A DNA stretch of 202 nt. It comes from Escherichia coli. GTDB lineage: Bacteria; Pseudomonadota; Gammaproteobacteria; Enterobacterales; Enterobacteriaceae. Position 1 is the first letter of the stretch, and every line of letters begins with the position of its first letter. A program made the translations under genes and the position numbers. Below are positions 1-202 of this stretch, piece by piece. The stretch lies in assembly GCF_003334385.1 (NCBI RefSeq), contig NZ_QOWN01000230.1. One strand, given 5' to 3'. Under the pieces are notes generated by a model. It ran no database searches. It had not been told where the DNA came from and was given only the letters and a program-made list of their open reading frames with translations.

Positions 1-202
1 AAACTTCCTTGATATGGCGTACACCGGTCTGCGCATCGTAGGAGCCAAACAGGGCCGCCACCAGGTCAAACACCCACCGTGCACAGGACTCCCCGAACGT
101 CGGGCTACCAGGTGCATCCACAATCCGCAGTTGTTTAAAAATCGCCAGGGCATGTGCGGCCTCGTCCGGATAAATCGGATCCGGAATAATCGACAGCCCC
201 TT
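1..202 (-). CDS. Partial CDS, both ends outside the window; tentatively the N-terminal ATPase region of a phage terminase large subunit-like protein
   Basis: Seen in sequence: the minus-strand frame with codons plus 202..200 through 4..2 has 67 sense codons and no stop. Composition is protein-like (about 10 Ala, 7 Gly, 6 each of Leu, Ile, Val, Asp, only 3 Arg, 1 Cys, 1 Trp). Codon choice is typical of Enterobacteriaceae (CTG for 5 of 6 Leu, CCG for 4 of 5 Pro). The same-register plus frame is also open but is about 15% Arg with rare CGG/AGG/CGA/ATA codons, as expected for an antisense shadow. Product call is from memory: residues 42-67 ([26 protein letters not shown], plus 2..79) resemble the conserved block preceding Walker A in large terminases (HK97-like '..WQ.F....LFGW....G.RRF..A.VEV' and lambda gpA '..RW..LPFQRAIMNAMGSDYIREV'). 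Confidence that this is a real CDS on the minus strand is about 0.85; confidence in the terminase assignment is about 0.4. Confidence 0.6.

What the first reader, a model, noticed from the sequence alone, without database searches (positions are those of the whole stretch)
2..112. Terminase family is ambiguous and the expected glutamine position holds valine
The fragment shares short elements with two different terminase lineages as I recall them. 'RW' followed by '..GS' and 'I+EV' recalls the lambda gpA N-terminus, while 'F.L..ALFG....TG.R' recalls the HK97-like family. The string GSPTFGE (plus 92..112) also matches GSPTFLG, which in lambda gpA is at a different, more C-terminal position and is probably coincidental. 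In my tentative alignment, the Trp at plus 74..76 is followed by Val where many TerL proteins carry the conserved adenine-binding Gln ('WQ'). This could mean a divergent terminase subfamily or simply a misalignment.
Basis: inference. Interest (0 to 1): 0.25.

Follow-up and report, generated by a model that had tools for sequence, protein, structure and literature searches.

The report
Terminase motor lacking its usual glutamine
The window encodes the start of an ordinary HK97-type phage DNA-packaging enzyme from an E. coli Shiga-toxin-phage-like prophage, and its whole branch of the family carries a greasy residue (here valine) where such enzymes normally have the glutamine thought to hold the adenine of ATP.

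Summary
The minus strand of the window encodes residues 18-84 of a 553-aa terminase large subunit (TerL). It is 100% identical to one IMG/VR contig and 96-99.5% identical to Stx-phage and E. coli prophage TerL genes.

The family is not ambiguous. Pfam, PDB sequence search, BLASTP, profile-profile alignment and an AlphaFold model (pLDDT 93.9; Foldseek top hit 6Z6D) all give the HK97-like family. Lambda gpA shows no significant similarity. The shared GSPTF string and the RW/GS/I+EV elements are chance, and Arg59 is a rare private allele.

The valine observation is real and is not a misalignment. Val61 falls in the same column as HK97 Gln33, the putative adenosine-pocket glutamine, and as the [WF]Q of five other canonical TerLs. 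The register to the Walker A motif is identical and gapless.

The substitution is clade-wide. Of 77 representatives, position 61 is F/V/I/L/M/A/Y/W in 72 and Gln in 5, and those five are scattered across the tree. HK97 relatives have Gln in 119 of 119. Catalytic residues are intact, and the clade includes plaque-forming phages.

Verdict: a known protein carrying a modest, apparently undescribed clade-level variant of the adenine pocket. What the variant does to nucleotide binding is inferred, not shown.

The parts
1..202 (-). Partial CDS: codons 18-84 (K18..V84, plus the first base of F85) of a 553-aa HK97-like terminase large subunit (TerL), covering the N-terminal part of the ATPase domain just upstream of the Walker A motif
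   Evidence: Open frame. 100% identical to L004:6620-6821, inside the intact ORF L004:6569-8230. Annotated 'terminase large subunit' in phages and E. coli genomes. Pfam PF03354 + PF20441.
176..199 (-). G19-P26: tail of a clade-specific N-terminal extension (consensus ACPDW..R[LI]..G.S[LI][IV]P[DE]P) that HK97 TerL lacks
   Evidence: Column counts in 77 representatives: G19 50, P24 67, P26 49. Upstream of the window: D11 59, W12 62, R15 57. The hhalign alignment to HK97 starts only at residue 29. pLDDT is about 97 here.
131..169 (-). Helix alpha-1 (P29-Q41), aligned to HK97 residues 1-13
   Evidence: DSSP on the AlphaFold model gives H29-41. hhalign alignment.
89..109 (-). G49-S-P-T-F-G-E55: the conserved G-x-P loop (equivalent to HK97 G24-Q25-P26-M27), followed by a 3-residue insertion relative to HK97 that forms a short helix (53-56). 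It contains the GSPTF string shared by chance with lambda gpA
   Evidence: Translation. Conservation: G49 67, P51 80, and [ED]55 73 of the 93 aligned rows, or 67 of the 77 filtered representatives. Insertion seen in hhalign and MAFFT. H53-56. gpA position 191, shuffle frequency 0.026.
77..79 (-). Codon 59, CGG = Arg: a rare private allele at a variable site (Pro, CCG, in E. coli ABU 83972; Gln, CAG, in phage 2851). It aligns to HK97 Pro31
   Evidence: The exact 57-mer with CGG occurs in 0 of 1,249 E. coli records, against 194 records for the Pro haplotype and 425 for the phage-2851 Gln haplotype. One IMG/VR contig carries it. Across the clade: D 19, P 18, E 16, Q 14, R 1.
74..76 (-). Trp60: near-invariant aromatic residue preceding the Q-position, equivalent to HK97 Phe32
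   Evidence: W in 72 of 77 representatives. Same column as the W/F of canonical TerLs. hhalign.
71..73 (-). Val61: occupies the position of the conserved adenine-pocket glutamine (HK97 Gln33)
   Evidence: hhalign pairs V61 with Q33, posterior about 0.6. MAFFT puts it in the same column as the Gln of five canonical TerLs. The residue-to-Walker-A-Lys spacing is 33 in both the query and phiSLT, with matching FG/R/E anchors. The role of Q33 is taken from PMC9410871.
47..79 (-). Helix alpha-2 (R59-F69), ending in the conserved F69-G70
   Evidence: DSSP H59-69. F69 66 and G70 79 of the 93 aligned rows.
2..19 (-). R79-H-I-K-E-V84: conserved Arg79 and Glu83, and the start of the beta-strand that leads into Walker A (PKKNSKS, just beyond base 1)
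   Evidence: R79 65 and E83 63 of the 93 aligned rows. Strand E83-87. In register with the RRF+E of phiSLT and the Salmonella phage TerL.

Best explanation
The window is the antisense strand of the 5' part of a terminase large-subunit gene from an E. coli lambdoid (Stx-phage-like, Pankowvirus-type) prophage. The protein is an HK97-like TerL with an N-terminal ASCE ATPase and a C-terminal RNase-H-like nuclease. It is encoded in an HNH - TerS - TerL module. It powers DNA packaging by ATP hydrolysis using Walker A K91/K94, Walker B D186/E187 and T221.

Shown: Val61 sits at the first turn of helix alpha-2, at exactly the position where HK97 TerL and other canonical family members carry the glutamine assigned to the adenosine pocket. 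This holds across a whole clade spanning Stx phages, Pseudomonas, Burkholderia, Xanthomonas, Vibrio, Moraxella, cyanobacterial and Rhodobacter phages. In that clade the position is hydrophobic (F, V, I, L, M) in about 94% of lineages. Gln appears sporadically in unrelated branches.

Inferred: in this clade the adenine is held mainly by hydrophobic packing (Trp60, residue 61, the G-x-P loop and the lid) rather than by Gln side-chain hydrogen bonds. The Gln is therefore dispensable, and base discrimination may be relaxed or supplied by another element.
For: Identity and context.

Family: Pfam PF03354 at 2.9e-11 and PF20441 at 4.1e-9. PHROG terminase families at 1e-145 or better. PDB best hit 6Z6D at 1e-9. 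BLASTP against HK97 gives 2e-11 over 460 aa. hhalign probability is 99.9-100% over about 490 columns. The AlphaFold model has pLDDT 93.9 and pTM 0.87. Foldseek's top hit is 6Z6D at 1.4e-28, and the next hit is 1.5e-13.

Q-position: hhalign pairs W60/V61 with F32/Q33. MAFFT of 14 named-phage TerLs puts V/I/L/F of the clade in the column holding Q of HK97, phiSLT, Efa9592-1, Judy and Bunnybear. The register W-x-(7)-FG-(8)-R-(3)-E-(6)-K-N-x-K-[ST] is gapless. Five clade members have WQ in that same column. HK97 Q33 forms the putative adenosine pocket with F239 and M27 (PMC9410871).

Clade-wide: position 61 is F28 V18 I8 L6 Q5 M4 A3 Y3 W2 in 77 representatives of 50%-identity clusters. It is V111 I7 M1 in 119 closer clusters. 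Gln is present in 119 of 119 HK97 relatives. The Gln-bearing members are scattered in an NJ tree, with hydrophobic nearest neighbours.

Functionality: Walker B DE in 75/77, T221 in 76/77, K90 and K94 invariant, K91 at 90% or more. Members include phages isolated as plaques or from lysates and sequenced Stx-converting phage genomes.
Against: The N-terminal 83 residues are too diverged for phmmer or hmmsearch to align to HK97; their local alignments start at residue 84. The equivalence therefore rests on profile-profile alignment with a moderate posterior (about 0.6), on multiple alignment, and on motif spacing.

I could not obtain model coordinates, so no residue-level superposition on 6Z6D or on a nucleotide-bound TerL was done. 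HK97 Q33 is itself only a 'putative' adenosine-pocket residue, taken from an apo structure. The mechanistic part (hydrophobic adenine pocket, possibly relaxed base specificity) has no direct evidence.
Confidence: 0.85

Rival explanations
1. Misalignment: the canonical adenine-binding Gln exists elsewhere in the N-terminal region (for example Gln41 or Gln75 of this fragment), and Val61 is not its equivalent.
For: Sequence-to-sequence and profile-to-sequence searches cannot align residues 1-83 to HK97. The hhalign posterior at W60/V61 is only about 0.6. No 3D superposition was possible.
Against: Gln41 and Gln75 are not conserved in the clade: column 41 reads R21 S14 N14 Q8 K8, and column 75 reads E19 A13 D11. 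No Gln or Asn column is conserved at 90% or more within residues 1-89. Two independent aligners give the same pairing. Spacing to Walker A and four anchor motifs match canonical WQ proteins without a gap. Some clade members carry WQ in this very column.
Confidence: 0.06
2. Compensation: base recognition has moved to another clade-specific element, and Val61 is merely a passive filler. Candidates are the conserved N-terminal extension (D11-W12..R15) or the Glu/Asp55 of the 3-residue insertion.
For: The extension is conserved (D11 59, W12 62, R15 57 of about 65 sequences with that region). It is absent from HK97 and confidently modelled (pLDDT about 97, helix 12-17). [ED]55 is present in 67 of 77 representatives.
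Against: There is no spatial evidence that either element is near the base. A 'GE' insertion co-occurs with a retained WQ in Arthrobacter phage Judy (PMRLGEGLDSWQ), so E55 is not a specific substitute. Clade members with Gln61 keep both the extension and [ED]55, so there is no covariation.
Confidence: 0.25
3. The fragment belongs to the lambda gpA terminase lineage, or to a hybrid of the gpA and HK97 lineages.
For: Lambda gpA does contain RW, GS, IREV and GSPTF.
Against: The best BLASTP hit of the full-length protein against gpA has E = 1.7, between unrelated regions. The Pfam scan returned only PF03354 and PF20441. The spacings differ, and Arg59 is a private allele. GSPTF in gpA lies after Walker B, at residue 191, and a shared 5-mer arises by chance in 2.6% of shuffles.
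Confidence: 0.01
4. The valine marks a decaying, non-functional TerL of a defective prophage.
For: Many E. coli prophages are defective. Neighbouring genes can be damaged; for example the portal gene is frameshifted in strain ABU 83972.
Against: The ORF is intact at 553 aa. All catalytic residues are conserved. WV or WI is fixed across 119 clusters at 71-99% identity. The same feature occurs in phages isolated as plaques or lysates (phiBt-TXDOH, IME307, phiL7, Marilyn, RcapNL) and in the sequenced Stx phages 2851 and BP-4795.
Confidence: 0.02

Closest known systems
HK97 gp2 large terminase (PDB 6Z6D; Pfam PF03354 TerL_ATPase + PF20441 TerL_nuclease)
   Same: It has the same two-domain architecture and fold (Foldseek 1.4e-28). 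It keeps Walker A with the extra essential lysine (HK97 K57/K60 = K91/K94), with a basic residue before it (R56 = K90). It keeps Walker B DE (D153/E154 = D186/E187) and the T186 = T221 motif. An HNH endonuclease gene lies next to TerS and TerL.
   Different: Identity is only about 20-23%. Val61 replaces Gln33. It has a 28-residue conserved N-terminal extension and a 3-residue insertion before the aromatic residue. The Walker A Gly59 position is Ser here (KKNSKS) and is variable across the clade (S29 G28 A7 T6). The downstream gene order is TerL - large capsid protein - portal, rather than TerL - portal - protease - capsid.
Lambda gpA terminase large subunit
   Same: Both are large terminase subunits of E. 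coli lambdoid phages. A few short strings are shared (RW, GS, I+EV, GSPTF).
   Different: There is no detectable sequence homology. The strings are out of register, GSPTF lies in a different part of the protein, and the Arg of 'RW' is a private allele.
Adenine-binding motif / Q motif of ASCE packaging ATPases and DEAD-box helicases (from my own knowledge: T4 gp17 Tyr142-Gln143; DEAD-box Q motif)
   Same: An aromatic residue plus a following residue lie at the start of a helix, roughly 20-35 residues upstream of Walker A.
   Different: The Gln that normally hydrogen-bonds adenine N6/N7 is replaced by an aliphatic or aromatic side chain. By analogy with helicases that lack a Q motif (my own knowledge, not tested here), this could relax NTP specificity.

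Membership tests
HK97-like TerL (Pfam PF03354 TerL_ATPase / PF20441 TerL_nuclease) | Significant match to both Pfam profiles | tested here: met
   PF03354 covers residues 63-224 at E = 2.9e-11. PF20441 covers 276-535 at E = 4.1e-9. The precomputed Pfam domains of all close homologues agree.
HK97-like TerL (Pfam PF03354 TerL_ATPase / PF20441 TerL_nuclease) | Full-length homology and fold similarity to the solved HK97 TerL | tested here: met
   phmmer 1e-9. BLASTP 2e-11. hhalign probability 99.9-100% over 488-490 columns. Foldseek top hit 6Z6D at 1.4e-28.
HK97-like TerL (Pfam PF03354 TerL_ATPase / PF20441 TerL_nuclease) | Walker A lysine plus the upstream second lysine (HK97 K60 and K57), and Walker B Asp-Glu | tested here: met
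   K94 and K90 are invariant, and K91 is conserved at 90% or more. DE at 186-187 in 75/77. They align to HK97 K60, K57, D153 and E154. The roles of these residues come from PMC9410871. All of them lie outside the 202-base window.
HK97-like TerL (Pfam PF03354 TerL_ATPase / PF20441 TerL_nuclease) | Conserved (characteristic, not membership-defining) adenosine-pocket Gln after an aromatic residue (HK97 F32-Q33) | tested here: not met
   The aromatic residue is present (Trp60), but the next residue is Val61. The position is non-Gln in 72 of 77 clade representatives, against Gln in 119 of 119 HK97 relatives.
HK97-like TerL (Pfam PF03354 TerL_ATPase / PF20441 TerL_nuclease) | Packaging-module context: adjacent TerS, with an HNH endonuclease as in HK97-type cos phages | tested here: met
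   HNH endonuclease - TerS - TerL - capsid - portal in E. coli ABU 83972 and in phage 2851. ORFs of the same sizes occur in L004.
HK97-like TerL (Pfam PF03354 TerL_ATPase / PF20441 TerL_nuclease) | ATP-dependent DNA packaging and cos/pac cleavage activity | not testable with these tools
   Only indirect evidence: clade members belong to plaque-forming or lysate-derived phages.
Lambda gpA-type terminase | Detectable sequence homology to gpA or to a gpA Pfam family | tested here: not met
   Best BLASTP E = 1.7, between unrelated segments. The Pfam scan returned only PF03354 and PF20441.
Lambda gpA-type terminase | N-terminal elements RW / GS / I+EV in the same register as gpA residues 50-72 | tested here: not met
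   The spacings are 14 and 3 residues in gpA against 10 and 10 here. Arg59 is not conserved.

The most novel reading that the evidence does not exclude
A large, widespread clade of HK97-like terminases, including those of Shiga-toxin phages, has rebuilt its nucleotide-base pocket. It has dispensed with the Q-motif glutamine and relaxed the Walker A glycine (KKN[S/G/A/T]K[ST]). As a result these packaging motors either discriminate the base by a different element (for example the clade-specific N-terminal D-W..R extension) or are less ATP-specific than canonical terminases.
Probability: 0.3. Interest if true: 0.45.

Novelty: new variant of a known kind. Interest (0 to 1): 0.27.

Why it matters
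The gene is a routine, already annotated terminase, so nothing changes for annotation.

The modest point of interest is mechanistic. The glutamine upstream of Walker A is treated as a conserved adenine-recognition element of viral packaging ATPases. Here a whole clade of working phages replaces it with hydrophobic residues and tolerates Gln only sporadically. At least 150 clusters at 50% identity belong to this clade, and the gene is present in about 23% of complete E. coli genomes.

This offers a natural experiment on how much the Gln contributes to nucleotide binding, specificity and mechanochemical coupling. The established HK97 in vitro packaging system can test it directly with Q33V and Q33F. 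It is also a caution against using 'WQ' as a diagnostic motif for TerL.

Tried and rejected
1. Lambda gpA relationship: I fetched gpA and confirmed the recalled strings, but BLASTP shows no homology and the spacings differ. Rejected.

2. phmmer, and hmmsearch with a clade profile, against HK97: both local alignments stop at residue 84, so they could not place Val61. I replaced them with hhalign and MAFFT.

3. NCBIfam: no hit for the full protein or the fragment.

4. Another conserved Gln in the N-terminal region: none found.

5. Glu55 of the insertion as a substitute for Gln: weakened, because phage Judy has both the 'GE' insertion and WQ, and because Gln-bearing clade members keep [ED]55.

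6. Covariation between residue 61 and the Walker A Gly/Ser position: none.

7. RNA or other non-coding feature in the window: no Rfam match at E <= 1.

8. Antisense ORF: it varies in length among close relatives and has no PHROG match. Judged spurious.

9. Literature: searches for a described lack of the Q-motif Gln in terminases found nothing relevant. The lambda Q-motif paper (PMC2732826) is not held.

10. Residue-level 3D superposition: not possible, because the structure tools return scores but not coordinates.

Full report
**What the window is.** The plus strand has no complete ORF. The minus strand, read from base 202, is open for all 67 codons: [67 protein letters not shown].

BLASTN finds the 202 bases at 96-99% identity in 93 phage records. 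Nearly all are Stx1a-, Stx2a- or Stx2c-converting phages, plus phages 2851, YYZ-2008 and 1717, and the sequence always lies inside a gene annotated as terminase large subunit. It also occurs in 1,252 of 5,426 complete E. coli genomes, with up to 7 copies per genome.

An exact 30-mer search of IMG/VR returned one contig, UViG_3300029250_000062 (L004). The window is 100% identical to L004:6620-6821 in reverse complement. There the gene is an intact 553-codon ORF, L004:6569-8230, and the window covers residues 18-84.

In E. coli ABU 83972 and in phage 2851 the gene order is HNH endonuclease - TerS - TerL - large capsid protein - portal. ORFs of the same sizes occur in L004.

**Checking the observation.** Window 2..112 (-) gives [37 protein letters not shown].

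There are two small slips:
- GSPTFGE is at 89..109; the stated 92..112 reads PGSPTFG.
- Five residues, not four, lie between ALFG and TG.

All the other quoted elements are present.

**Is the family ambiguous? No.** The evidence for the full-length protein is as follows.
- Pfam gives TerL_ATPase PF03354 (residues 63-224, 2.9e-11) and TerL_nuclease PF20441 (276-535, 4.1e-9) and nothing else.
- PHROGs gives terminase large-subunit families at 1e-145 or better.
- The only significant solved relative by sequence is HK97 TerL, 6Z6D (1e-9).
- BLASTP against HK97 gp2 gives 2e-11 over 460 residues. Against lambda gpA the best segment has E = 1.7 and joins unrelated regions.
- I aligned 78 sequences (the query plus representatives at 30-58% identity) and used them for AlphaFold2. 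The model has mean pLDDT 93.9 and pTM 0.87.
- Foldseek against the PDB ranks 6Z6D first at 1.4e-28. The next hits (D6E, T4, Sf6 terminases) are at 1e-13 or weaker.

They are out of register, though. W to GS is 14 residues in lambda and 10 here, and GS to I+EV is 3 against 10. GSPTF lies after Walker B in gpA. A shuffled fragment shares a 5-mer with gpA in 2.6% of trials.

The Arg of 'RW' is also a private allele. Codon 59 is CGG here, CCG (Pro) in ABU 83972 and CAG (Gln) in phage 2851. The exact 57-mer carrying CGG is absent from all 1,249 matching E. coli records. The Pro haplotype is exact in 194 records and the phage-2851 Gln haplotype in 425. Among 119 related protein clusters, residue 59 is Q60, P53, N4, A1, K1 and never R.

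**Does Val61 really sit at the glutamine position? [quoted passage not shown] Q33 lies in the string DPFQKDF.

Sequence-to-sequence and profile-to-sequence alignments to HK97 start only at residue 84, so I used three other lines of evidence.

1. **Profile-profile alignment.** I ran hhalign with a 79-sequence clade alignment against a 119-sequence HK97-family alignment. Both in global mode and in local MAC mode it pairs G49-S50-P51-T52 with G24-Q25-P26-M27. It then introduces a 3-residue insertion (F53-G54-E55) and pairs P59-W60-V61-F62-D63 (Arg59 in the window) with P31-F32-Q33-K34-D35. Overall probability is 99.9-100%, and the local posterior at W60/V61 is about 0.6.

2. **Multiple alignment.** MAFFT of 14 named-phage TerLs puts two groups in the same column. 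One group is V (query, 2851, Pseudomonas IME307, Burkholderia phiBt-TXDOH, Xanthomonas phiL7, Moraxella Mcat6), I (Microcystis Mae-JY04), L (Vibrio Marilyn) and F (Rhodobacter RcapNL). The other is the Q of HK97, Staphylococcus phiSLT, Enterococcus 9592-1, Arthrobacter Judy and Gordonia Bunnybear.

3. **Register.** The alignment to canonical members is gapless from the aromatic residue to Walker A:
   - query [37 protein letters not shown]
   - phiSLT PWQHFIIGSLFGWVHKETKLRRFKEALIFMGRKNGKT
   - a Salmonella phage [37 protein letters not shown]

   All three share FG at +8/+9, R at +18, E at +22 and the P-loop Lys at +33.

In addition, five clade members carry WQ in this very column. The model places residue 61 in the first turn of helix 59-69. 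No other Gln in residues 1-89 is conserved; Q41 and Q75 sit in variable columns.

**It is a property of a clade.** A search of 1.84 billion cluster representatives found 394 proteins at E <= 1e-30, and the best 150 all scored E <= 4e-64. In the 77 representatives that cover the N-terminus, the key columns are as follows.

| Position | Counts in 77 representatives |
|---|---|
| 60 | Trp in 72 |
| 61 | F28 V18 I8 L6 Q5 M4 A3 Y3 W2 |
| 186-187 (Walker B) | DE in 75 |
| 221 | Thr in 76 |

K90 and K94 are invariant. In 119 closer clusters (71-99% identity), position 61 is V111, I7, M1. By contrast, 119 of 119 HK97 relatives have Gln33.

In an NJ tree built without column 61, the five Gln-bearing sequences fall in separate places. 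Two lie in the V/I-rich half and three in the F-rich half, and their nearest neighbours are mostly hydrophobic at position 61; two of the five have another Gln-bearing sequence as nearest neighbour. Gln and hydrophobic residues have therefore interchanged repeatedly.

In the phage collection the clade is sharply bounded. Identities run down to 38% (RcapNL) and then drop to 24% or less for the remaining PF03354 proteins. Members include phages isolated as plaques or from lysates, so the variant is functional.

**Mechanism.**
- *Shown:* this is an intact HK97-like TerL ATPase/nuclease. It has every catalytic residue that was mutationally validated in HK97: K57, K60 and E154 correspond to K91, K94 and E187 (PMC9410871; alignment).
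- *Shown:* the canonical Gln position is Val.
- *Inferred:* the adenine is held by hydrophobic packing from Trp60, residue 61, the G-x-P loop and the lid, so the Gln hydrogen bonds are dispensable in this clade. One possible consequence is relaxed base specificity. This is by analogy with helicases that lack a Q motif, which is my own knowledge and was not tested.
- *Non-exclusive rival:* base recognition has moved to a clade-specific element. The candidates are the conserved N-terminal extension (ACPDW..R) and [ED]55. Against [ED]55, phage Judy has both a GE insertion and WQ, and Gln-bearing clade members keep both elements.

I could not obtain model coordinates, so no residue-level superposition was done. 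That is the decisive missing test.

**Comparison and novelty.** By every membership criterion I could test, the protein belongs to the HK97-like TerL family. The one characteristic feature it lacks is the Gln, which is conserved in the family but does not define membership. The gene itself is already known and annotated. I found no description of the clade-wide loss of the Q-position Gln, nor of the accompanying variability of the Walker A Gly, in the searchable literature. That search is limited, and this is a modest variant of a known machine.

**Scores.** Interest is 0.27. The most novel reading still open is a rebuilt base pocket with altered NTP specificity or an alternative recognition element. 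I put that at about 0.3 probability, with interest of about 0.45 if true.

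Noticed in passing
window 77..79 (-); L001:5124-5126; L002:4124-4126: Codon 59, just before Trp60, has three alleles differing at its second base: CGG Arg (window), CCG Pro (E. coli ABU 83972) and CAG Gln (phage 2851). The Arg allele is absent from all 1,249 matching E. coli records and occurs in one IMG/VR contig. Across the clade the site is D, P, E or Q.
   Followed up: yes
L004:6836-6853 (TerL residues 90-95, just beyond window base 1): The Walker A motif reads KKNSKS, with Ser where P-loops normally have the Gly of GK[ST]. 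In 77 clade representatives this position is S29 G28 A7 T6 N3 W2 F1 D1. HK97 relatives have G in 116 of 119. It does not covary with residue 61.
   Followed up: partly
L004:6590-6646 (TerL residues 8-26; window 176..199 covers its end): A clade-specific, well-conserved N-terminal extension (consensus ACPDW..R[LI]..G.S[LI][IV]P[DE]P) that HK97 TerL lacks. It is confidently modelled (pLDDT about 97). Its role is unknown.
   Followed up: partly
proteins P0123, P0128, P0149, P0239, P0161 (relatives): Several clade TerLs carry a 35- to 390-residue insertion exactly between the Walker A Lys and the following Ser/Thr. An example is ...SKKNSK|ALALDTPIPTPSGW...LPTHN|STLAAGIML. It looks like an intein that starts with Ala and ends in HN before a Ser/Thr +1 residue.
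   Followed up: partly
window 14..202 (+); L004:6203-6808 (-): The antisense frame is open across the window and starts at an ATG at window base 14. The ORF is 201 aa in L004, but only 180 and 128 aa in two close relatives, and it has no PHROG match. It is most likely a spurious ORF opposite a GC-rich coding region.
   Followed up: yes
L001:6676-10202; L002:5675-8202; compare L003:2056-5185: Downstream of TerL comes a 645-aa 'major capsid protein' (in phage 2851 its note reads 'phage head maturation protease'; possibly a protease-capsid fusion, not examined) and only then the portal. HK97 has TerL - portal - protease - capsid. In ABU 83972 the portal gene is frameshifted.
   Followed up: no
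L016:1-330 (Microcystis phage Mae-JY04 TerL): This clade member has Arg in place of the otherwise near-invariant Trp60 (..GDICDERILDLVAAIFGA..). Here both residues of the canonical aromatic-Gln pair are replaced.
   Followed up: no
proteins P0001, P0014, P0016, P0028: A few database entries fuse this TerL to extra sequence, giving proteins of 692-782 aa. One is named 'phage tail tape measure protein' and carries PF09718; another carries the small-terminase domain PF03592. These are probably mis-assemblies or read-through gene calls.
   Followed up: no
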